This document shows positions 1 through 6,124 of a stretch of 6,124 nucleotides of DNA, in pieces. The stretch's first letter is position 1. Every line of letters starts with the position of its first letter. The translations under genes were made by a program, and so were the position numbers. The notes under the pieces were generated by a model. That model was given only the letters and a program-made list of their open reading frames with translations, was not told the DNA's origin and did no database searches. The stretch lies in IMG/VR virus record IMGVR_UViG_3300029081_000013, positions 1 to 6,124 of that record; one strand, written 5' to 3'. Source of the DNA: a virus.

Positions 1-99
1 CCTTTATATTTAGCTTTTATTAACCATATTCATATTGTTTCCTTATTGTTTTATATTATATTTGCGTAACAGAAGTAAATACCATCGTTCTGGCGGAAC
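1..99. repeat. Terminal direct repeat; positions 1-99 are identical to 6026-6124. This is a circular-genome assembly overlap, giving a unit genome length of 6025 nt.
   Basis: Direct comparison of window start (cctttatatttagcttttattaacc...ccatcgttctggcggaac) with 6026-6124 gives a base-for-base match that includes the first half of the 81-105 hairpin. No genes cross the junction. Confidence 0.9.
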
Positions 100-105
100 G
101 ATGGT
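81..105 (+). promoter_or_regulatory. Perfect 10-bp stem (ACCATCGTTC / GAACGATGGT) with a 5-nt loop TGGCG, in the AT-rich intergenic region upstream of the gene chain. Candidate origin, primosome or packaging hairpin, or a terminator.
   Basis: Reverse complement of 81-90 equals 96-105 exactly. Flanked by very AT-rich sequence (1-80 and 106-141). Lies in the only sizeable gene-free stretch (5911-6025 plus 1-141). Confidence 0.5.
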
Positions 106-141
106 TTATGTAACATTATTAACATATAAACTATTGATTTT

Positions 142-378
142 ATGGAAGCTAAATTATTCGGTCTAAAAATTATTTTTGATTCGGTAGAAACTGAGTCATT
201 TTATGTTGAGTTTCTTTCTTACTCTGACACAGTCTCTTACCTTGTTCGTAAGATTCTTCATTATTATGATTCTACGCCTATTTTGTCGTTTTCTGTTGTT
301 CCTGTTGAAACTCTTCATCTTGGTTTTTCTCTTATGGATTCTTCTAATATTGATTTATTTAATTATTTAATACATTGA
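142..378 (+). CDS. Hypothetical small acidic protein (78 aa), first gene of the + strand chain.
   Basis: ATG-initiated ORF with the same strongly T-ending codon usage as rep, VP1 and VP2. Stop TGA 376-378 lies 5 nt before the next ATG (384). Acidic composition (D/E-rich) with an internal VET repeat. Homology not recognised. Confidence 0.45.
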   Translation: MEAKLFGLKIIFDSVETESFYVEFLSYSDTVSYLVRKILHYYDSTPILSFSVVPVETLHLGFSLMDSSNIDLFNYLIH

Positions 379-383
379 TTATT

Positions 384-479
384 ATGAAACCTGTTTGGAA
401 AATAGTTTTTTACGTAGCGGAAGCGTTGTTATCTGCTATTAAGGCTGTTTTTGGTGGTAAGGATAAGGAGTCTAAGTGA
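384..479 (+). CDS. Hypothetical 31-aa peptide (MKPVWKIVFYVAEALLSAIKAVFGGKDKESK). Its TGA stop overlaps the rep ATG (TGATG), and the rep SD (AAGGAG 465-470) sits inside its 3' end.
   Basis: Manual translation from ATG 384 to TGA 477-479. The overlap suggests translational coupling to rep. Mixed codon usage and short length keep confidence low. Confidence 0.25.
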   Translation: MKPVWKIVFYVAEALLSAIKAVFGGKDKESK

Positions 480-1969
480 TGGAGTCTGTCTTACCTTTAA
501 ATTGTCGTTGTCTTGAGCCTCGCAAGGTTTTTAATCCTTATTCCAAGGATAGCCTTGTTGTTCCTTGTGGTCATTGTAAGGCTTGCCTCTTGAATAAAAA
601 TTCTCGGCTTGCTTTTCAATGTGACTTGGAATCTGTTTCTAATAAGTATTGCGTGTTTATCACCCTTACTTATGCTAATCGCTTTATACCTCGTGCTAAT
701 TTCATTGACGCTACCGATCGCCCTTTTGGCTGTGATCTTTATGATAAGGAGACTGGTGAGTTACTCGGCGCTTGCGATATGTTAGAAGAGGATCGCCAAC
801 GTTTGTTGGATAAGTTTTATTTGTTTGGTGATGTACCTTATTTGAGAAAGTCTGATTTACAACTATTTTTTAAAAGATTTCGTTATTATGCAGGAAAAAT
901 TACAAAAGAGAAAGTGCGTTACTTTGCTGTCGGAGAGTATGGTCCCGTCCATTTCAGACCGCATTATCATGTCTTATTATACTTCAACTCTGAGACCCTC
1001 CTACAGGCATGTTCAGAGATTGTACTTTCGTCATGGAGATTTGGTCGTGTCGATTGTCAGCTCTCCAAAGGTAAATGCTCTTCGTATGTTGCGAGTTACG
1101 TTAATAGCTCTGTGTCTGTACCCAAAGTTTTTACGTTATCTTCCACACGTGGGTTCTGTTTACATTCTCAAAAATTGGGTCAAGGTTTTTTGCAAGGTGA
1201 ACGAGAGAAAGTATACTCGCTTACCGCTTCGGAGTTTATTCAAAGAAGCGTCGTACTCAATGGAACTTATAAGGAATTCCGTTTGTGGCGGTCGTGTTAC
1301 CGTTATTTCTACCCCAAGTGTAAAGGATTCTCTGATAAATCTGCACGTGATCTTTCTTACTCTTACAGAGTCTATGCTACGGCGAAAGAATTGTTCCCCT
1401 ACTGTGAGACAGCTGCGGAACTCGCGCGTGAGATAGCTTCTTGTGTTCGTCTTTTTGGCCCTTCTGTTAAGGGTCTTACTTATGATCTTCCTCTTTCTGA
1501 GGTTTCTAAAATGAATGACTTATTGTCATATTTTTATGATCCCGTTTGTGATATGGATATTGATTCAGATCTTTTCCAGCGTTGGATTAATCGTATTTAT
1601 ATTGAGTTATTAACTTCTAAACATTTTTTGTATTATGTCTGTGATCATCCGACTACCTACGAGATAAATCGCAAGATTCGTCTTATACAGGATTTTTATA
1701 AGCAATTGGAATATCTCCGTTTGACTGAGTTCTTTGAGAATCAATCCCAATATTACGAGTCAGATTTTGTCGGTGATGAGCCTTTGCTTTCTGATCAGTA
1801 TGGTAATAGTTTTGTTCCTTACTTCTATGATAATTTGAATTATTCTATGAAGTGTTATAAAGAGTTGGTCGCTTATAAGTTGTTTGAGTCTAATACCTTA
1901 CGGCTTGCGCAAGACCGGATTAAGCATAAGTATCTTAACGATAAGAATAAAATATTTTTTAATGAGTAA
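479..1969 (+). CDS. Replication initiation protein (Microviridae VP4 / phiX174 gene A-like HUH rolling-circle endonuclease), about 496 aa with a roughly 290-aa extension C-terminal to the catalytic tyrosines.
   Basis: N-terminal Cys cluster (PCGHCKAC). Motif 1 CVFITLTY (650-673). HUH motif HYH (962-970) within VHFRPHYHVLLYF. Motif 3 with paired tyrosines YVASYVN (Tyr codons 1085-1087 and 1097-1099), matching the phiX174 A-protein YVAKYVNK active site. The track ORF begins at GTG 476, but ATG 479 is preceded by AAGGAG at optimal spacing. Confidence 0.9.
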   Translation: MESVLPLNCRCLEPRKVFNPYSKDSLVVPCGHCKACLLNKNSRLAFQCDLESVSNKYCVFITLTYANRFIPRANFIDATDRPFGCDLYDKETGELLGACDMLEEDRQRLLDKFYLFGDVPYLRKSDLQLFFKRFRYYAGKITKEKVRYFAVGEYGPVHFRPHYHVLLYFNSETLLQACSEIVLSSWRFGRVDCQLSKGKCSSYVASYVNSSVSVPKVFTLSSTRGFCLHSQKLGQGFLQGEREKVYSLTASEFIQRSVVLNGTYKEFRLWRSCYRYFYPKCKGFSDKSARDLSYSYRVYATAKELFPYCETAAELAREIASCVRLFGPSVKGLTYDLPLSEVSKMNDLLSYFYDPVCDMDIDSDLFQRWINRIYIELLTSKHFLYYVCDHPTTYEINRKIRLIQDFYKQLEYLRLTEFFENQSQYYESDFVGDEPLLSDQYGNSFVPYFYDNLNYSMKCYKELVAYKLFESNTLRLAQDRIKHKYLNDKNKIFFNE

Positions 1970-1973
1970 CATT

Positions 1974-3662
1974 ATGAATTTAAAGTCGTTACGTAATAAA
2001 CCTTCTCGTAATGGCTTCGATCTTTCGTTTAAGCGGAATTTTACCGCTAAAGCTGGTGAGCTTCTTCCTGTTATGGTGAAAGAGGTTCTTCCCGGCGATG
2101 TCTTTAATATTGATTTGTCCTCGTTTACTCGTACCCAGCCTGTTAATACTGCCGCTTTCGCTCGTATGCGTGAGTATTATGATTTCTTTTTTGTTCCTTA
2201 CAATCTGCTTTGGAACAAGGCTGATACGCTTTTAACCCAAATGTATGATAATCCCCAGCATGCGAACTCGTGGAATCCGGCGGATGCTTTTACTTTAAAA
2301 GGTGAGATGCCTTATATTACCTGTGAGCAAATCGCTAATTATTTTAAGACTCAACGCTCTTTGGGTCTTTTGGTTAGTTCTATTAATAATAATTATTTCG
2401 GTTACCAACGTGGTTCTCTCTCCGCTAAGTTGTTGGAATATCTTGGATATGGTAACTATTTTGATTATGTCGGTACCGATACCTCAAAGAATGAATGGAG
2501 TAAGAATCCTCTTATGAATAATTTGAACTTGAACGTATTTGGCTTGTTGGCTTATCAAAAGATTTATGCCGACTTTTTCCGTGATTCTCAATGGGAGAAA
2601 ATTAGCCCCTCTACGTTTAATGTTGATTACATGAACGGTGTTGATACTTTGCAGATGGATATTCCCGTTGGTACAAGTCCCAATCAGGACTTTTACAAGG
2701 CTTATAACATGTTTGATCTCCGGTATTGTAATTGGCAGAAGGATTTATTTCACGGTGTTGTTCCTTCTGCGCAGTATGGAGGTGGTTCTACTGTTTACCC
2801 TGTTAGTGGTTCTATTACTGGTACTGTGGCTGGTTCTGTTGTTACGGGTACCGCTAAATCCTCGCTTGACGTTTTGATGCTTCGTCAATATGAGTTCTTG
2901 CTAAAATGGCGTGAGATAGCTCAATCCGGCAATAAGGATTATAAGGATCAAGTTCAGAAACATTGGAATGTCTCTGTTGGTGATTACGCTTCTGAGGTTT
3001 GTCAATATCTTGGCGGTGTTAACTCGAATATTGATATCAATGAGGTTGTTAATACTAATATTACCTCTGATAATGCCGCTGATATTGCTGGTAAAGGTAC
3101 TGGTGTTTCTCGTGGTAATATTCGCTTTGATTCTCGTGGTAAGTATGGTTTGTTAATGTGTATCTATCACTGTTTGCCAGTCTTGGATTACACTACTGAT
3201 TTTGTTGAGCCTGCTTTTACTAAGATTAATGCCACTGATTACGCTATTCCGGAATTTGATCGTATTGGTATGCAGGCTGTCCCTCTTGTTTGGGCTACGA
3301 ACCCTCCCGGTAGTGTTGCCTCCGCTCCTTATATGAAGCTTGGTTACGCTCCCCGTTATATTGAGTATAAGACGGCTTTTGATTCTTCTGTTGGCGCTTT
3401 TAAGCGTTCTTTGAACTCTTGGGTGATGTCCTATAACAATGCTTCTCTTATTGATCAGATTGGTTCCGGTACTACTAAACCCGAGCCTCCTTATTCCGAC
3501 GTTTATGTGAATTACTCGGCTTTTAAGGTTAATCCGAACTCGGTTGACCCGATATTTGCCGTGCAAGCTAATTCAAATGTTGATACTGATCAGTTCTTAT
3601 GTAGTGCTTTCTTTGATGTGAAAGCGGTTCGCAACTTGGATGTAGATGGTTTACCTTATTAA
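1974..3662 (+). CDS. Major capsid protein VP1 (Microviridae F-like jelly-roll capsid protein), 563 aa.
   Basis: The N-terminal region NGFDLSFKRNFTAKAGELLPV matches the conserved gokushovirus VP1 N-terminus (RN.FDLSH....MG.L.PI). The size is typical of gokushovirus VP1. The track ORF (1884) extends upstream into rep. ATG 1974 lies 4 nt after the rep stop (TAA 1967-1969), in frame, and is the likely true start. Confidence 0.85.
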   Translation: MNLKSLRNKPSRNGFDLSFKRNFTAKAGELLPVMVKEVLPGDVFNIDLSSFTRTQPVNTAAFARMREYYDFFFVPYNLLWNKADTLLTQMYDNPQHANSWNPADAFTLKGEMPYITCEQIANYFKTQRSLGLLVSSINNNYFGYQRGSLSAKLLEYLGYGNYFDYVGTDTSKNEWSKNPLMNNLNLNVFGLLAYQKIYADFFRDSQWEKISPSTFNVDYMNGVDTLQMDIPVGTSPNQDFYKAYNMFDLRYCNWQKDLFHGVVPSAQYGGGSTVYPVSGSITGTVAGSVVTGTAKSSLDVLMLRQYEFLLKWREIAQSGNKDYKDQVQKHWNVSVGDYASEVCQYLGGVNSNIDINEVVNTNITSDNAADIAGKGTGVSRGNIRFDSRGKYGLLMCIYHCLPVLDYTTDFVEPAFTKINATDYAIPEFDRIGMQAVPLVWATNPPGSVASAPYMKLGYAPRYIEYKTAFDSSVGAFKRSLNSWVMSYNNASLIDQIGSGTTKPEPPYSDVYVNYSAFKVNPNSVDPIFAVQANSNVDTDQFLCSAFFDVKAVRNLDVDGLPY

Positions 3663-3673
3663 TTGATTATGTT

Positions 3674-4141
3674 ATGTTTGCTAAAAGACGTTTAACACCG
3701 CATGTCTATAATGCTCTTGAGAAGGGTGCTGTAGACTTGAGTAAGAGTGAGTTTTATCAACCTTCCGCAATTGATGATTTTTTGTTCGTTAAGAATAAAC
3801 CTCCCCATTCGGACTGCGATTCGGTTACTTTTACTACTGATATTACTATGCTGTTTAATCAGCAACGTTTGGATAAGATGTCTCGTGAGGCTTTGCTCCA
3901 GCATTTTGACTCTTTTTCTGTTCAGGACTCTCGGTTCGCCGATTTGCGTGCGAAACTTTCTGATGATCAGTTGTGTTCTATTGTTAAGTCTCGTTATATT
4001 CAGACTCCTTCCGAATTGATGTCTTATAGTCAATATCTTGTTGATTCGGTTGGTCTTGAGTTGGCTTCTGTGGCTCCGCATGTTGATCCTGCTGGTGATC
4101 CTGCTCCGGCTGGTGATCCTACTCCGGCTTCTGCGGAATAA
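3674..4141 (+). CDS. Putative internal scaffolding-like or other small structural protein (155 aa) with a C-terminal DPAG/DPAPAG/DPTPAS repeat.
   Basis: ATG 11 nt after the VP1 stop. T-ending codon bias matches the other genes. Size is in the VP3 scaffold range. Assignment rests on position and size only, since no motif was recognised. Its position between VP1 and VP2 differs from the canonical gokushovirus VP1-VP2-VP3 order. Confidence 0.45.
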   Translation: MFAKRRLTPHVYNALEKGAVDLSKSEFYQPSAIDDFLFVKNKPPHSDCDSVTFTTDITMLFNQQRLDKMSREALLQHFDSFSVQDSRFADLRAKLSDDQLCSIVKSRYIQTPSELMSYSQYLVDSVGLELASVAPHVDPAGDPAPAGDPTPASAE

Positions 4142-4162
4142 GTTTATATGTTACTTCTGATA

Positions 4163-4190
4163 GGGCGGTTAATACCGCCCTTTTCTTTAT
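4163..4190 (+). terminator. Rho-independent terminator-like hairpin GGGCGGT-taat-ACCGCCC followed by TTTTCTTTAT.
   Basis: 7-bp GC-rich perfect stem (4163-4169 / 4174-4180), 4-nt loop, then a T-run. Located 22 nt after the stop of the 155-aa gene. This is analogous to the leaky terminators after the structural genes in phiX174. Confidence 0.55.
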
Positions 4191-4219
4191 CAAGTTTAAT
4201 TTATTTAATATTTTATATT

Positions 4220-5344
4220 ATGGGTGTTGTACAAGGTTTGACAGGTCTTGCCGGCGCTGGTATTGCTGCTGGTGCTAATACCGCCGCTACCGTTATGACT
4301 AATAACGCTAATAAGCAGATCGCTCAGATGAATAATGCTTTCAACGAGAAGATGCTGCAAAAGCAGATGGATTATAATAAGGAAATGTATCATCAGCAGT
4401 TAGGTGATCAATGGTCTTTCTATAATGATGCTAAGGAGAATCAATGGCAAATGTATGAGGATACCAAGGAATATAATTCCGCCTCCGCTCAACGTGAACG
4501 TCTTGAGGCTGCTGGACTGAATCCCTACCTTATGATGTCTGGTGGTAACGCTGGTGTCGCTACATCTAATTCTGCTCCTTCCGGCTCCGCTCCCGCTGGA
4601 CAAGGTGTTAGTATTCCTACCGCCTCTTCTTATGCCGCTGATTACTCCGGCTTGGCTCAAGGTGTAGGACAGGCTATTGATGCTTATAATCAGATTCGCC
4701 TCCAAAAAGCTCAACAAGGTAAGATAAGCGCCGAGGAGAATAATATCCGTATTGAAGGTAAGTACAAGGCTGCTTCGATGATCGCTGAGATTGCTAATAA
4801 GATACAGAACACGAAGTCTCAAGCCGCTAAGACTGCTTTAGAGACTATTATGACAGGTGTTCAAAGAGACCTTATTCGTGCTCAGACGGACAAGGTTAAA
4901 GGCGAGACTACCTATAACGCTATTCTCGCTCGTGGTGCCTCTGTAGATGTTCTAATGAAGTCTGAGACGCTTAAGGTGCTTCCTCAACAGCTTCGTAATT
5001 CTCTTGCTGAGCAAACCGCTAATATCGCAGTTAAGTACGCTCAACGTGATTTAACTAAGAAACAGGTTGATCATGAAGTTGAAAAAATTGTTAATACTAT
5101 TGCTCAACGTGGTTTGATCGGTGCACAAACGGATGCTACTTCTATAGCTAATAATGGTGCCGTACAGCAGCAGCAGTATTTCGCTGATACTTATAAGATT
5201 CAGAAGAATAAGTTGATTGCGGAAATGAAGCATGCTATTTTAAATAGTGGCCCTCAAGACCCTACAGGTCTTTTGAATTTCTTTAATCAAGCTTATCAAT
5301 CTGCAACAGGTGTCACTAATCGTTCTTATGATACGGATTATTGA
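4220..5344 (+). CDS. VP2 / DNA pilot (minor spike) protein-like, 374 aa from ATG 4220. The track ORF starts at 4148 (398 aa).
   Basis: Gly/Ala-rich N-terminus (GLTGLAGAGIAAGANTAATV) followed by Q/N-rich helical segments and low-complexity SAPSGSAPAGQG, as in microvirus VP2/H-like pilot proteins. The T-ending codon bias begins at 4220. The 4148-4219 segment has different third-position usage and contains the terminator hairpin, so 4220 is the preferred start. ATG 4148 lies only 6 nt after the preceding stop and remains a possible alternative. Confidence 0.6.
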   Translation: MGVVQGLTGLAGAGIAAGANTAATVMTNNANKQIAQMNNAFNEKMLQKQMDYNKEMYHQQLGDQWSFYNDAKENQWQMYEDTKEYNSASAQRERLEAAGLNPYLMMSGGNAGVATSNSAPSGSAPAGQGVSIPTASSYAADYSGLAQGVGQAIDAYNQIRLQKAQQGKISAEENNIRIEGKYKAASMIAEIANKIQNTKSQAAKTALETIMTGVQRDLIRAQTDKVKGETTYNAILARGASVDVLMKSETLKVLPQQLRNSLAEQTANIAVKYAQRDLTKKQVDHEVEKIVNTIAQRGLIGAQTDATSIANNGAVQQQQYFADTYKIQKNKLIAEMKHAILNSGPQDPTGLLNFFNQAYQSATGVTNRSYDTDY

Positions 5345-5376
5345 TTATTTTTGTTGTGTTATTAAATTATTTTGTT

Positions 5377-5514
5377 ATGATTTCTTTTATTGGTAATTTA
5401 GGCACAGGTGAAATAATTATTGGCCTTTTGTTTGTTATGGTTCCCTTTATTCTTGTTTGCTGGCTTATAATAGCCTTGATACGTTATTTGAATCGGAAGT
5501 CTAAAACTAATTAG
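5377..5514 (+). CDS. 45-aa single-pass transmembrane peptide with a basic C-terminal tail (MISFIGNLGTGEIIIGLLFVMVPFILVCWLIIALIRYLNRKSKTN). Candidate lysis protein, or a membrane-inserted accessory protein.
   Basis: Manual translation of an ORF that falls below the track cutoff. ATG 5377 lies 32 nt after the VP2 stop. A 23-residue hydrophobic core is followed by RYLNRKSK. This architecture (short TM helix plus basic tail) is that of phiX174 E-type single-gene lysis proteins and of small holin or antiholin-like peptides. It is followed directly by a GC-rich hairpin at 5532-5560. Confidence 0.4.
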   Translation: MISFIGNLGTGEIIIGLLFVMVPFILVCWLIIALIRYLNRKSKTN

Positions 5515-5573
5515 TCTATTTCGAAACAAATAGGGGCTAATTAGCCCAAAATTAGCCCCTTATTAGTCTATTT
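5507..5573. promoter_or_regulatory. Palindrome-rich iterated element. It has four ATTAG cores (5510, 5540, 5551, 5562), two copies of the palindromic CTAATTAG (5507-5514, 5537-5544), a 10-bp inverted repeat AGGGGCTAAT / ATTAGCCCCT (5532-5541 / 5551-5560), and a flanking 12-bp direct repeat ATTAGTCTATTT (5510-5521, 5562-5573).
   Basis: Read directly from the sequence. GGGCTAATTAGCCC (5534-5547) is a perfect 14-nt palindrome. The alternative fold is a 10-bp stem with a 9-nt loop followed by a T-rich run (terminator-like). The 11-bp spacing of the last three ATTAG cores corresponds to one helical turn, which would suit binding sites on one face. Confidence 0.5.
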
Positions 5574-5609
5574 TAAATGTGTACTTTTTGTGAATATTGT
5601 GAAACCTTA

Positions 5610-5687
5610 GTCACTTTCCCGAAGGGCAGCCGATTAATCTTTATTCTCGGCTGTCCTCCTTTCTTGTCCTAGTATACGAAAAGTGAC
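5610..5687 (+). promoter_or_regulatory. Nested inverted repeats. The inner stem GGGCAGCCGA (5624-5633) / TCGGCTGTCC (5647-5656) is 10 bp with one G.T wobble and a 13-nt loop. It is enclosed by an outer 8-bp inverted repeat GTCACTTT (5610-5617) / AAAGTGAC (5680-5687), and followed by a pyrimidine tract.
   Basis: Read directly from the sequence. Function is unknown. It could be a terminator, a structured RNA, or a cruciform ssDNA element. It overlaps a doubtful 31-aa Cys-containing ORF (5577-5672). Confidence 0.35.
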
Positions 5688-5706
5688 AGGATTCTATTTT
5701 AAGCGT

Positions 5707-5910
5707 ATGGAATACCGTATTAAATCATGTCTCATTCCTTTCCATGATCTTCTTGAGATATTCGAGTTTCTTGTCAATCTTCCTTCAATTTACTTGTGGC
5801 AGTATCAAGGTTTGGATATTCTTTTAAATGATCGTCCTATCATGAAAATACTGATTCGGTTCGAAAATGGTACTACGTATGTCTCGTACACTACCGTTCG
5901 CCTCTTTTAG
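5707..5910 (+). CDS. Doubtful hypothetical protein (67 aa from ATG 5707; the track gives 75 aa from GTG 5683).
   Basis: An open frame, but its codon usage is C-ending and mixed, unlike the T-ending bias of the confident genes. There is no SD, and it sits in the otherwise structure-rich region after VP2. May be non-coding. Confidence 0.2.
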   Translation: MEYRIKSCLIPFHDLLEIFEFLVNLPSIYLWQYQGLDILLNDRPIMKILIRFENGTTYVSYTTVRLF

Positions 5911-6124
5911 ATTTAACCAAAACCAAACTTTTGAAAGTAATAACGTTTTTCTCATCGGCCGTAGGCCGCAAATGTTCGACCTATTATTTTGGTAGAACTT
6001 CGGTAGAAAAGTAGTAATCTTCTTTCCTTTATATTTAGCTTTTATTAACCATATTCATATTGTTTCCTTATTGTTTTATATTATATTTGCGTAACAGAAG
6101 TAAATACCATCGTTCTGGCGGAAC

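What the first reader, a model, noticed from the sequence alone, without database searches (positions are those of the whole stretch)
1..6124. Complete circular gokushovirus-like microvirus genome (6025 nt) with atypical size and gene order
The 99-nt exact terminal redundancy shows the window is a circularly permuted complete genome of 6025 nt. Its gene content is Microviridae (HUH Rep, VP1, a VP2-like protein and a scaffold-sized protein), but the arrangement is Rep -> VP1 -> 155-aa -> VP2 -> small ORFs. The genome is about 1.5 kb larger than classical Gokushovirinae (about 4.4-4.9 kb), and Rep, at 496 aa, is much longer than the usual VP4 of about 300-340 aa. This suggests a divergent, probably undescribed microvirus lineage. 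Depending on context it is either an integrated or episomal prophage or a virion-derived contig.
Basis: partly seen in the sequence, partly recalled or inferred. Interest (0 to 1): 0.65.

Follow-up and report, generated by a model that had tools for sequence, protein, structure and literature searches.

The report
Temperate gut microvirus, known Alpavirinae type
The window is one complete 6,025-base genome of a small single-stranded-DNA phage of gut Bacteroidales from an already described group (Alpavirinae), so its size and gene order are normal; the less ordinary part is that it sits in host chromosomes exactly at one inverted repeat of a flip-flop (phase-variable) promoter, so it probably borrows the host's promoter-flipping enzyme to integrate.

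Summary
The 99-nt exact terminal repeat and the 6,025-nt unit are real, and the gene content is Microviridae: HUH Rep, VP1, a 155-aa protein, VP2 and small ORFs.

The lineage is not undescribed or atypical. The unit is 93.5% identical to Dulem virus 220 (GenBank, lemur faeces, 2024). It is 100% identical to public human-gut assemblies. VP1 groups with Bacteroides and Prevotella microvirus prophages at 48-67% identity, against 25-27% for gokushoviruses. Every relative examined has Rep (about 490-540 aa), then VP1, a 145-166-aa protein and VP2, in 5.6-6.6 kb. That is the published Alpavirinae layout.

The same sequence is integrated in Bacteroidales contigs in five assemblies, once as a head-to-tail dimer. 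The junctions define a 13-bp core, GTTCTGGCGGAAC (window 87-99), at the centre of a perfect 25-nt palindrome. The window's right end is exactly the phage-host junction. The terminal repeat therefore marks a cycle in the assembly, not necessarily a free circle.

The host site is the left inverted repeat of a 221-bp invertible promoter upstream of susC/susD, found in both orientations in public contigs. Integration by the host invertase is inferred, not shown.

Separately, a roughly 100-nt structured non-coding element (5592-5698) is conserved across the group with strong covariation. It is a candidate replication origin.

The parts
1..99 (.). Left copy of the exact 99-nt terminal direct repeat (right copy 6026-6124); non-coding, holds most of the attP palindrome
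   Evidence: (D2, 100%)
6026..6124 (.). Right copy of the terminal repeat; its last base (6124, equivalent to 99) is the last phage base at attR in integrated copies
81..105 (.). attP: perfect palindrome ACCATCGTTC-TGGCG-GAACGATGGT. [quoted passage not shown]
   Evidence: (I4)
142..378 (+). 78-aa ORF of unknown function, conserved and annotated as hypothetical in Dulem viruses 216 and 220, called as a gene in prophage copies
384..479 (+). 31-aa ORF; its TGA stop overlaps the Rep ATG (ATGA-type overlap)
479..1969 (+). Rep (VP4-like rolling-circle initiator), 496 aa: motif I FITLTY, HUH motif HYHVLL, two-tyrosine motif YVASYVNS aligned with phiX174 protein A YVAKYVNK
1962..3662 (+). Major capsid protein VP1 (566 aa from ATG 1962; gene callers use ATG 1974, 562 aa)
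3674..4141 (+). 155-aa protein, putative internal scaffolding protein (VP3 analogue). Assigned by position and size; only a weak motif resemblance to gokushovirus VP3
   Evidence: PMC3091885
4162..4181 (+). G+C-rich hairpin followed by a T-run (terminator- or attenuator-like) between the scaffold gene and VP2
4220..5344 (+). VP2 DNA pilot protein, 374 aa (start as annotated in Dulem virus 220 and as called in prophage copies)
5377..5514 (+). 45-aa hydrophobic ORF with a basic C-terminus; a similar 38-45-aa ORF ends just before the conserved element in relatives; function unknown (lysis or membrane protein is a guess)
5505..5598 (.). 94-nt non-coding block absent from Dulem viruses 216 and 220 but present in Dulem virus 223; contains the hairpin GGGGCTAA...TTAGCCCC
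5592..5698 (+). Conserved structured non-coding element (paired core 5610-5687). An outer 8-bp helix encloses a C-GAA-G mini-hairpin, a 7-bp hairpin whose loop starts TTAAT, and a near-invariant unpaired stretch ...TCTTGTCCTAGTATACGA. Candidate replication origin
5707..5910 (+). 67-aa ORF of unknown function, conserved (C(L/P)IPFHDLLEIF motif also in the Bacteroides prophage L003)

Best explanation
The window is one complete genome unit (6,025 nt plus a 99-nt repeat) of a temperate microvirus of the Alpavirinae type that infects gut Bacteroidales.

Shown:
- It encodes a two-tyrosine HUH Rep, a VP1 capsid protein, a 155-aa scaffold-position protein, a VP2 pilot protein and five small ORFs, all on one strand. 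It encodes no recombinase.
- The same sequence lies integrated in Bacteroidales chromosomes between a DUF3332 gene and a susC/susD operon, as a single copy or as a head-to-tail dimer.
- The crossover lies within the 13-bp core GTTCTGGCGGAAC (window 87-99), at the centre of a perfect 25-nt palindrome in the phage.
- In the host, that 13-mer is the left inverted repeat of a 221-bp segment. The segment carries a Bacteroides-type promoter pointing at susC and occurs in both orientations in public assemblies.

Inferred:
- The double-stranded replicative form is recombined into this inverted repeat by the host recombinase that flips the promoter. The same enzyme could excise the prophage.
- Rep replicates the genome by rolling circle. 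A tandem prophage could also release unit-length circles by Rep nicking at the origin in one copy and terminating at the origin in the next, as CTXphi does.
- The conserved structured element at 5592-5698 is the most likely origin. Its invariant unpaired ...TCTTG/TCCTA... resembles the CTTG|ATA nick motif of phiX174.

The window's ends reflect an assembly cycle anchored at the att branch point. They do not prove a free circle.
For: Family and clade:
- Pfam and PHROG hits and Rep motifs aligned with phiX174 protein A.
- VP1 identities and NJ tree. The layout is shared by all relatives and by prophages in Bacteroides, Xylanibacter and Prevotella.
- 93.5% identity to Dulem virus 220. iPHoP predicts Parabacteroides as the host of that virus.

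Integration:
- The exact Rep and the exact 155-aa protein occur on contigs of 16-222 kb, flanked by GH2 and DUF3332 genes on one side and SusC/SusD on the other.
- 100% identity to the scaffold_27 locus (L100), arranged host|[87..6025][1..6025][1..99]|host. The other four assemblies hold single copies [87..6025][1..99] at 97-99% identity.
- Junction sequences are the same in all five assemblies, apart from one base inside the phage arm of attL in L105 (GGTGG for GATGG).
- The core is conserved in Dulem viruses 216 and 220.

Invertible promoter:
- An inverted copy of the 13-mer lies 221 nt away and 152 nt upstream of the susC ATG. TTTG-N21-TATATTTG inside the segment points at susC.
- A metagenome scan found the same left flank followed by the segment in one orientation in 58 contigs and by its reverse complement in 15. 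In a full-length check, 48+ contigs were ON and 12 OFF, with the right repeat intact in both. Four contigs showed a phage junction.

No recombinase:
- All ORFs are accounted for.

Origin candidate:
- 97.4% of cells paired, 16 of 18 pairs with double-sided changes, 0 of 500 shuffles as good, and slid controls at 38-51%.
- Found by the covariance model in sequences outside its training set, including the Prevotella prophages and the cultured phage phiHBP1. Absent from phiX174, Chp1 and phiMH2K.
- It is the only deeply conserved non-coding stretch.
Against: - No recombinase gene lies within about 7 kb on either side of the host site, and no experiment links any invertase to this repeat. The enzyme is inferred only from the fact that the segment inverts.
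- All five lysogen assemblies show the promoter in one orientation, so inversion in lysogens is not shown.
- The tandem dimer could be an assembler walking a cycle twice rather than a real array.
- The host genus is not determined here. It rests on another group's iPHoP prediction for a 94%-identical virus.
- The origin assignment is by analogy only. The CTTG motif is CTCG in some members. Folding does not distinguish viral ssDNA from mRNA, because both are + sense.
- Bootstrap support for deep VP1 nodes was poor or not recovered in my NJ tree. BMV1-7 themselves and the Pichovirinae and Parabacteroides-group references were not included.
Confidence: 0.75

Rival explanations
1. One reading: a free circular genome of a divergent, undescribed gokushovirus-like lineage with unusual size, gene order and Rep length.
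For: The terminal repeat is real. The genome is larger than Chp1 (4,877 nt) and phiMH2K (4,594 nt), and Rep is longer than their VP4 (399 and 315 aa).
Against: There are near-identical deposited genomes and many relatives with the same layout. VP1 is only 25-27% identical to gokushoviruses. The literature already describes this architecture (PMC3091885, PMC3394797).
Confidence: 0.03
2. The window is not a free circle. It is the terminal 6,124 nt of a tandemly integrated prophage, or an assembler's walk round a tandem repeat, so the 99-nt repeat is a genuine direct repeat inside a longer linear sequence.
For: The window equals L100:6523-12646 at 100% identity, and its last base is the attR boundary. 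L101, from run ERR525726, is the unitig [87..6025][1..99], bounded at both ends by the att core. That is expected when a phage-to-host junction is present in the sample.
Against: A 99-nt overlap equal to a common assembler k-mer size, starting at the branch node, is also what a circular path gives when free circles and lysogens coexist (my inference). Relatives were recovered as circular genomes from virus-enriched preparations (PMC11281440). Short-read assemblers can create artificial dimers.
Confidence: 0.4
3. Integration uses the chromosome-dimer resolution system (XerC/XerD at dif), as proposed for BMV proviruses, rather than a promoter invertase.
For: Krupovic & Forterre 2011 proposed this for BMV1 and BMV3-6 and also found a 13-bp duplicated core. 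The direct repeats flanking L003 and L006 contain XerD-arm-like half-sites, ATTAAACATAA and TTATGTTAAT.
Against: The window's attP and attB score at chance against the dif consensus. The host site exists as an inverted pair 221 nt apart around a promoter that demonstrably flips. That is not how a dif site behaves.
Confidence: 0.12
4. The conserved element at 5592-5698 is the complementary (minus)-strand origin, a host primase or RNA polymerase entry site on the viral ssDNA like the phiX174 primosome site, the G4 complementary-strand origin or plasmid sso, rather than the Rep nick site.
For: It is a multi-hairpin ssDNA structure in an intergenic region. GNA-type triloops closed by C-G are prevalent; from my own knowledge, these are unusually stable in DNA. 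Excluding the terminal pair there are 7 G-T pairs and 0 A-C pairs, which favours folding of the + strand. Analogous conserved hairpins in other microvirus clades were proposed as minus-strand initiation sites (PMC9865509).
Against: The near-invariant unpaired sequence over very divergent Reps and hosts, and the resemblance of CTTG plus an AT-rich stretch to the phiX174 origin, fit a Rep nick site at least as well. No second deeply conserved non-coding element exists to serve as the other origin.
Confidence: 0.3
5. The conserved element acts at the RNA level, as a terminator, processing site or regulator between the structural genes and the downstream early genes.
For: It lies on the coding strand, between the stop codon of the 45-aa ORF and the start of the 67-aa ORF. 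A hairpin followed by a pyrimidine-rich run resembles a terminator.
Against: There is no Rfam match at E <= 1. An enclosing helix plus an invariant 26-nt single strand is not simple terminator architecture. Triloop preferences look DNA-like.
Confidence: 0.15

Closest known systems
Alpavirinae / Bacteroidetes-associated microvirus proviruses BMV1-7 (Krupovic & Forterre 2011; Roux et al. 2012; 'Family 5' of Kirchberger et al. 2022)
   Same: - Rep immediately upstream of VP1, an ORF of about 150 codons between VP1 and VP2, and a genome of about 6 kb.
- No integrase, and a prophage state in Bacteroidales.
- A 13-bp core duplicated at the prophage ends, as reported for BMV1.
- VP1 48-67% identical to prophages in Bacteroides, Xylanibacter and Prevotella.
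   Different: The attachment site is not dif-like. It is the inverted repeat of a host invertible promoter. BMV1-7 themselves were not available for a direct comparison.
Dulem viruses 220, 216, 217 and 223 (GenBank PP511xxx; lemur faeces; PMC11281440)
   Same: Same gene order and size (5,890-5,936 nt). Identity to Dulem virus 220 is 93.5% in aligned positions, with VP1 96% and Rep 98%. The attP core is conserved in Dulem viruses 220 and 216.
   Different: - Below the authors' 98% vOTU threshold.
- Mosaic: around 5200-5500 the window follows Dulem virus 216, not 220.
- It carries a 94-nt block shared only with Dulem virus 223.
- It was found here in human-gut assemblies.
Bacteroides phage phiHBP1 (PV598014), the first cultured Bacteroidota microvirus (PMC13064476)
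   Same: VP1-scaffold-VP2-...-Rep layout at 6,319 nt. It carries the conserved structured element (E 4.6e-5).
   Different: VP1 is only about 39% identical. It encodes an M15 peptidase, and lysogeny was not observed in that study.
CTXphi-type phages that integrate with host recombinases (IMEX)
   Same: ssDNA phage with a rolling-circle Rep and no integrase of its own. It uses a host recombination site, occurs as tandem prophage arrays, and could in principle be produced from a tandem array by Rep without excision.
   Different: The target here is not dif. The attP is a symmetric palindrome in the double-stranded form, not a forked ssDNA hairpin made from two dif-like sites. The enzyme is unknown.
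Bacteroidales invertible promoters (invertons) flipped by Mpi, Tsr0667, Tsr19 and related invertases (PMC4747536, PMC8748976)
   Same: The host attB has the full anatomy: short inverted repeats, about 220 bp between them, an internal TTTG/TAnnTTTGY promoter, a downstream susC/susD operon, and both orientations in natural populations.
   Different: Here one repeat also serves as a phage attachment site. I found no report of that in the searched literature.
Replication origins of phiX174-type phages (viral-strand origin CAACTTG|ATATTAATAAC...; hairpin sites for complementary-strand priming)
   Same: A conserved non-coding signal with CTTG followed by an AT-rich stretch, and a C-GAA-G mini-hairpin. 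phiX174 has CCCCGAAGGGG about 25 nt from its origin.
   Different: The order and spacing of the motifs differ. The element is intergenic rather than inside the Rep gene. No functional data exist.

Membership tests
Microviridae | Phage_F-type jelly-roll major capsid protein | tested here: met
   PF02305 E 4.7e-24; phrog_514 E 3.7e-68 over residues 37-591
Microviridae | Superfamily-I rolling-circle Rep with an HUH motif and two catalytic tyrosines in motif III | tested here: met
   FITLTY, HYHVLL and YVASYVNS aligned with phiX174 protein A, Chp1 and phiMH2K; PF23343 and phrog_942
Microviridae | Small circular ssDNA genome in a T=1 virion | not testable with these tools
   Sequence alone gives only a 6,025-nt cyclic unit. 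Strandedness and virion form are not observable.
Alpavirinae (BMV-type) | VP1 clusters with Bacteroides/Prevotella proviruses, apart from Gokushovirinae and Bullavirinae | tested here: met
   67% identity to a Bacteroides MAG prophage and 48% to Xylanibacter and Prevotella prophages, against 25-27% to Chp1 and phiMH2K and 22% to phiX174 F. An NJ tree places it inside that clade. Surrogate prophages were used, not BMV1-7. Pichovirinae and the Parabacteroides group were not included.
Alpavirinae (BMV-type) | Rep-VP1-(about 150-aa ORF)-VP2 layout in about 6-6.5 kb | tested here: met
   Window ORF map. The layout is identical in L003, L005, L006, the Dulem, tortoise, dog and rodent genomes, and phiHBP1.
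Alpavirinae (BMV-type) | Lysogeny in Bacteroidales without a phage-encoded integrase | tested here: met
   Identical or 97-99% identical copies are integrated next to susC/susD in five assemblies. No recombinase-like ORF is present.
Alpavirinae (BMV-type) | dif-like attachment site (proposed use of XerC/XerD) | tested here: not met
   attP and attB score at chance against the dif consensus. The site is an inverton inverted repeat. This feature was proposed for, not shown in, BMVs, and was absent in BMV2 and BMV7 (PMC3091885).
Gokushovirinae | VP1 and VP4 cluster with Chlamydia, Bdellovibrio and Spiroplasma phages; genome of about 4.4-4.9 kb; recognisable VP3 and VP5 | tested here: not met
   VP1 25-27% and Rep 23-24% identical. 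The genome is 6,025 nt. No PF09675 hit for any of 11 orthologues of the 155-aa protein. hhalign against Chp1 and phiMH2K VP3 gave probability 6.9%.
Internal scaffolding protein VP3 (for the 155-aa ORF) | Detectable homology to gokushovirus VP3 | tested here: inconclusive
   Only a 22-column match, KSRYIQSPSELMAWS against RVNFSNSPMEFLSWL. No Pfam or PDB hit. The assignment rests on position and size, as in PMC3091885 and the GenBank annotations.
Bacteroidales invertible promoter (for the host attB) | Inverted repeats flanking a short promoter-bearing segment found in both orientations | tested here: met
   13-nt exact inverted repeat 221 nt apart; TTTG-N21-TATATTTG(C) pointing at susC; 48+ contigs ON and 12 OFF with identical flanks.
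Bacteroidales invertible promoter (for the host attB) | A dedicated or master invertase acting on these repeats | not testable with these tools
   No recombinase gene within about 7 kb on either side of the site. Master invertases act at a distance (PMC4747536).
Rfam RNA families (for the element at 5592-5698) | Match to any curated covariance model | tested here: not met
   No match at E <= 1 over the whole window.

The most novel reading that the evidence does not exclude
This microvirus, with Dulem viruses 216 and 220, has an attachment site that copies the inverted repeat of a host phase-variable susC/susD promoter. It would then integrate and excise using the bacterium's own promoter invertase rather than XerCD at dif, which would tie lysogeny to the host's phase-variation machinery. 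Separately, the group-wide structured element at 5592-5698 would be the long-sought replication origin of Alpavirinae, and it is now testable in the cultured phage phiHBP1.
Probability: 0.5. Interest if true: 0.75.

Novelty: new variant of a known kind. Interest (0 to 1): 0.5.

Why it matters
As a genome, this is ordinary: one more member of a well-sampled gut microvirus group, already present in public databases.

Two by-products could matter to specialists.

First, how integrase-less microviruses become prophages has rested since 2011 on a proposed use of the dif/XerCD system. Here the junctions are mapped to the base. The target is one arm of an invertible promoter that demonstrably flips in natural populations. 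This points to a different host enzyme and gives a concrete attP/attB pair to test. It also means the prophage sits inside a phase-variation switch controlling an outer-membrane nutrient-uptake operon.

Second, no replication origin is known for the non-phiX microviruses. The covarying element found here is present in a cultured Bacteroides microvirus, so mutagenesis and nicking assays are now feasible.

Tried and rejected
- Rfam scan of the whole window at E <= 1: nothing.
- Sigma-70 promoter scan: at the chance level, 20 found against 16.8 expected. The Bacteroides promoter pattern matched once, inside the Rep gene, also at chance.
- dif search in the window with the bacterial consensus and with the L003 att sequence: no hit within 3 mismatches. 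Best scores were at the shuffle level.
- My early candidate dif-like site at window 12-39 was dropped once the true junctions were mapped.
- Whole-28-mer dif scoring is also at chance for the L003 and L006 att repeats. I therefore call them only 'XerD-arm-like half-sites'.
- Scaffold homology: hhalign against Chp1 and phiMH2K VP3, Pfam on 11 orthologues, and a PDB profile search were all negative or inconclusive.
- Kirchberger et al. supplement look-up for relatives' accessions, to obtain a family number: no entries.
- Exact-protein look-up of the 566-aa VP1 failed because gene callers start at the second ATG, giving 562 aa. Look-ups with Rep and the 155-aa protein succeeded.
- IMG/VR scan for an attR junction: none.
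- I considered that the pyrimidine run CCTCCTTTCT in the element mimics the 3' end of 16S rRNA. I rejected this because CCTCC is not conserved across the family.
- Rep (HUH)-mediated integration was considered and set aside. The junctions show a 13-bp identity with a pre-existing host recombination site, which is the signature of conservative site-specific recombination.

Full report
**1. The observation**

Positions 1-99 and 6026-6124 are identical, so the repeating unit is 6,025 nt. All credible genes are on the + strand.

| Feature | Coordinates | Size | Evidence |
|---|---|---|---|
| ORF, unknown function | 142-378 | 78 aa | |
| ORF, stop overlaps the Rep ATG | 384-479 | 31 aa | |
| Rep | 479-1969 | 496 aa | PF23343, phrog_942 |
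| VP1 | 1962 or 1974 to 3662 | 566 or 562 aa | PF02305, phrog_514 |
| ORF, no family hit | 3674-4141 | 155 aa | |
| VP2 pilot protein | 4220-5344 | 374 aa | phrog_8689 |
| Hydrophobic ORF | 5377-5514 | 45 aa | |
| ORF, unknown function | 5707-5910 | 67 aa | |

**2. It is not an undescribed or atypical lineage**

Nearest sequences:
- Megablast against GenBank phage records finds Dulem virus 220 (four isolates from lemur faeces) covering 95% of the unit.
- A global alignment gives 93.5% identity in aligned positions and 91% when gaps are counted.
- Dulem viruses 216, 217 and 223 follow at 83-92% identity.
- The source paper (PMC11281440) reports 537 lemur microviruses of 4,057-6,727 nt, most falling in Alpavirinae, the Parabacteroides group or unclassified clades. 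Its supplementary host-prediction table (Table S3) gives an iPHoP host of Parabacteroides (96.9) for PP511538.
- An IMG/VR fragment is 95.2% identical.

VP1 identities:

| Compared with | VP1 identity |
|---|---|
| Dulem virus 220 | 96% |
| Pig microvirus MT135391 | 75% |
| Prophage in a 270-kb Bacteroides MAG contig (L003, between gyrA and usp/bat genes) | 67% |
| Prophages in Xylanibacter rarus and Prevotella sp. CAG:1185 | 48% |
| Chp1 and phiMH2K | 25-27% |
| phiX174 F | 22% |

An NJ tree puts the window inside the clade of Bacteroides and Prevotella prophages.

Every relative inspected has the same architecture: Rep of 491-539 aa, then VP1, an ORF of 145-166 aa and VP2, in 5.6-6.6 kb. This is how Krupovic & Forterre (PMC3091885) described the Bacteroidetes proviruses BMV1-7:
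- Rep immediately upstream of the capsid gene.
- An ORF of about 150 codons between VP1 and VP2, predicted to be a scaffold.
- A region of about 6 kb (BMV1 is 6.3 kb).
- No integrase.

Roux et al. [quoted passage not shown] Size, order and Rep length are therefore the norm for this group.

The scaffold assignment of the 155-aa protein remains positional. Profile comparison with gokushovirus VP3 gives only a 22-column match, and Pfam and PDB searches give nothing.

**3. Context: the same sequence is a prophage**

Exact-sequence look-ups of the window's Rep and 155-aa protein return long bacterial contigs:
- ENA ERZ28565828 scaffold_27, 221,777 nt.
- ERZ28600257 scaffold_311, 44 kb.
- Logan assemblies of ERR15324849, ERR12641485 and ERR11478340, 16-36 kb.

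In all of them the phage genes lie between a GH2 beta-galactosidase and a DUF3332 gene on one side and susC/susD on the other.

Alignment shows that scaffold_27 carries host|[87..6025][1..6025][1..99]|host at 100% identity. This is a head-to-tail dimer, and the whole 6,124-nt window equals L100:6523-12646. The other four assemblies carry a single copy [87..6025][1..99] at 97-99% identity. A 6,038-nt Logan contig (ERR525726_9877) is exactly [87..6025][1..99].

The junctions are:
- attL: ...ctataagtacgta|GTTCTGGCGGAACGATGG...
- attR: ...ACCATCGTTCTGGCGGAAC|tccgtttattac...

The crossover core is therefore the 13-mer GTTCTGGCGGAAC (window 87-99). It is the centre of the perfect palindrome ACCATCGTTC-TGGCG-GAACGATGGT (81-105), first seen as repeat I4. 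The core is conserved in Dulem viruses 220 and 216.

Because the window ends exactly at the attR boundary, the 99-nt repeat is best read as a cycle in a k=99 assembly graph anchored at the branch node where phage-to-phage and phage-to-host paths diverge. That reading is my inference. It shows a cyclic or tandem junction, not necessarily a free circle, and it implies that the source sample also contained lysogens.

**4. The host site is an invertible promoter**

To the right of attR the host carries an inverted copy of the same 13-mer, 221 nt away and 152 nt upstream of the susC start codon. The intervening segment contains TTTG-N21-TATATTTG(C), the Bacteroides -33/-7 promoter consensus, pointing at susC (consensus as in PMC4747536 and PMC8748976).

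A scan of public metagenome contigs with the host-left flank plus core found the same locus followed by:

| Sequence after the core | Contigs |
|---|---|
| The segment in the 'ON' orientation (empty attB) | 58 |
| Its exact reverse complement | 15 |
| Phage DNA (attL) | 4 |

In a full-length check, 48+ contigs were ON and 12 OFF, with the right repeat and outer flanks unchanged. The segment is thus a real invertible element, and the phage's attB is its left inverted repeat.

The phage's palindrome arms share CATC+core (17 nt) with the outer side of the right repeat.

The window's attP and attB do not resemble dif. By contrast, the repeats flanking the L003 and L006 prophages contain XerD-arm-like half-sites, although their whole-site scores are not above chance.

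The phage encodes no recombinase. The parsimonious inference is that the host enzyme that flips this promoter also recombines attP with the repeat. The enzyme itself is not identified, and none is encoded within about 7 kb of the site. All five lysogen assemblies show the ON orientation. I found no report of such a target for a microvirus in the searchable literature.

**5. A conserved structured element**

While comparing relatives I found that window 5592-5698 is nearly invariant among close relatives although its neighbours diverge. It is alignable to the Bacteroides prophage L003 with compensatory changes. BLAST finds it, unannotated, in 23 GenBank microviruses whose VP1 is as little as about 40% identical to the window's (Dipodfec virus UOA04_Rod_446; full-length matches come from genomes with VP1 of about 55% or more).

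The proposed structure is:
- An outer 8-bp helix, GTCACTTT/AAAGTGAC.
- Inside it, a C-GAA-G mini-hairpin.
- A 7-bp hairpin whose loop starts TTAAT.
- A 26-nt unpaired stretch, TCCTCCTTTCTTGTCCTAGTATACGA.

Support for this structure:
- On 12 sequences, 94.9% of cells pair, 9 pairs have double-sided changes, and 0 of 500 shuffles do as well.
- A covariance model built from these sequences finds the element in the Prevotella and Xylanibacter prophages, which were outside the training set. It does not find it in phiX174, Chp1 or phiMH2K.
- The model also finds it in 52 of 94 sources, including IMG/VR relatives with VP1 identity down to 31%. It is always on the coding strand, and downstream of VP2 wherever gene positions were checked.
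- On that set, 97.4% of cells pair and 16 of 18 pairs covary, against 38-51% pairing for slid controls. That alignment is fitted to the model, which favours the structure.
- The element is present in the cultured B. fragilis microvirus phiHBP1.
- It has no Rfam match.
- It is the only deeply conserved non-coding stretch in the genome.
- Excluding the terminal pair there are 7 G-T pairs and no A-C pairs, so the + strand is the folded one.

The invariant ...TCTTG/TCCTA... and the TTAAT loop recall the phiX174 origin CAACTTG|ATATTAATAAC, which also has a nearby CCCCGAAGGGG hairpin. I therefore favour a viral-strand origin, that is, the Rep nick site. A complementary-strand origin is the main rival, as proposed for analogous hairpins in other microvirus clades (PMC9865509). 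An RNA-level role is a weaker rival. None of these is tested.

**6. Other points**

- The genomes are mosaic. The VP1-scaffold module follows Dulem virus 220. Around 5200-5500 the window follows Dulem virus 216. A 94-nt block (5505-5598) is shared only with Dulem virus 223.
- A terminator-like hairpin (4162-4181) separates the scaffold gene from VP2.

**7. Verdict**

The window is a complete unit of a known kind of temperate gut microvirus (Alpavirinae type), nearly identical to deposited genomes and identical to public human-gut contigs. Its interest lies not in its size or gene order but in two leads:
- An attachment site mapped to the base that coincides with the inverted repeat of a host phase-variable promoter.
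- A strongly covarying non-coding element, shared across the group, that is a candidate origin.

Both are sequence-based inferences that need experiments.

Noticed in passing
window 5592-5698 (+); also L003 11687-11789, L005 5967-6076, L006 11917-12026, L098 2424-2321: A roughly 100-nt structured non-coding element is conserved across Alpavirinae-type microviruses, with 16 of 18 base pairs covarying. It is unannotated in nearly all of the matching GenBank records (one has two hypothetical CDSs overlapping it) and has no Rfam match. It is a candidate replication origin.
   Followed up: yes
L105 6769-7015 (host DNA right of attR); the same locus in L108-L226: A host 221-bp segment flanked by 13-nt inverted repeats upstream of susC/susD occurs in both orientations in public metagenome contigs (about 48 ON, 12 OFF). 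It is an invertible promoter whose left repeat is the phage attB.
   Followed up: yes
L100 584-12646 (ENA ERZ28565828 scaffold_27): The prophage is present as an exact head-to-tail dimer with an intact attP at the internal junction. This may be a real tandem array, which would allow CTXphi-like production by Rep without excision, or an assembler walking the cycle twice.
   Followed up: partly
window 5505-5598: A 94-nt non-coding block with a GGGGCTAA/TTAGCCCC hairpin and flanking ATTAGTCTATTT direct repeats. It is absent from Dulem viruses 216 and 220 and present (83-89% identity) in Dulem virus 223. It changes the last residues of the 45-aa ORF.
   Followed up: partly
window 1962-4060 versus 4060-1780 (across the junction), and 5200-5500: Modular mosaicism. 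The VP1+scaffold module matches Dulem virus 220 but is only 40-85% identical to Dulem virus 216. The VP2-to-Rep part is 91-97% identical to both, except a patch where the window matches 216 (0.93) and not 220 (0.42).
   Followed up: partly
window 5377-5514: A 45-aa ORF with one hydrophobic helix and a basic tail. Positional counterparts of 38-45 aa end just before the conserved element in L003 and Dulem viruses 231 and 232. It could be a single-gene lysis or membrane protein in genomes that lack the M15 peptidase. There is no evidence beyond position.
   Followed up: no
window 5707-5910 and 142-378: Two conserved small proteins (67 aa and 78 aa) of unknown function flank the att region. The first has a C(L/P)IPFHDLLEIF motif also found in L003. 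A temperate phage should have some lysogeny control, and these are the only unassigned candidates.
   Followed up: no
L104 5301-6989 (ERZ28600257 scaffold_311): In one integrated copy the VP1 gene is called as two pieces (94 aa and 451 aa). This suggests a disrupted capsid gene in that prophage, or an assembly error.
   Followed up: no
L003 5989-6016 / 12185-12212; L006 5875-5900 / 12068-12093: Other Alpavirinae prophages are flanked by 26-28-nt imperfect direct repeats about 6.19 kb apart. They contain XerD-arm-like half-sites (ATTAAACATAA and TTATGTTAAT), so they use a different attachment site from the window's phage. Whole-site dif scores are not above chance.
   Followed up: partly
L004 (CALUYR010000330.1, 3,405-nt contig binned to 'Candidatus Gastranaerophilales'): A microvirus VP1 48% identical to the window's sits on a short contig binned into a Melainabacteria MAG. 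Kirchberger et al. warn that such single-contig assignments are probably binning errors.
   Followed up: no
L135 (VOFC01004728.1), about 3,650 nt from the start on the minus strand: One metagenome contig has a hybrid sequence after the core, TCCGTTTATTACT|AGACGCAGCAAATAT. It may be a collapsed assembly of the two promoter orientations or a deletion variant of the invertible segment.
   Followed up: no
window 4162-4181: A strong G+C-rich hairpin with a T-run lies between the scaffold gene and VP2. It may attenuate VP2 expression relative to the capsid and scaffold genes.
   Followed up: no
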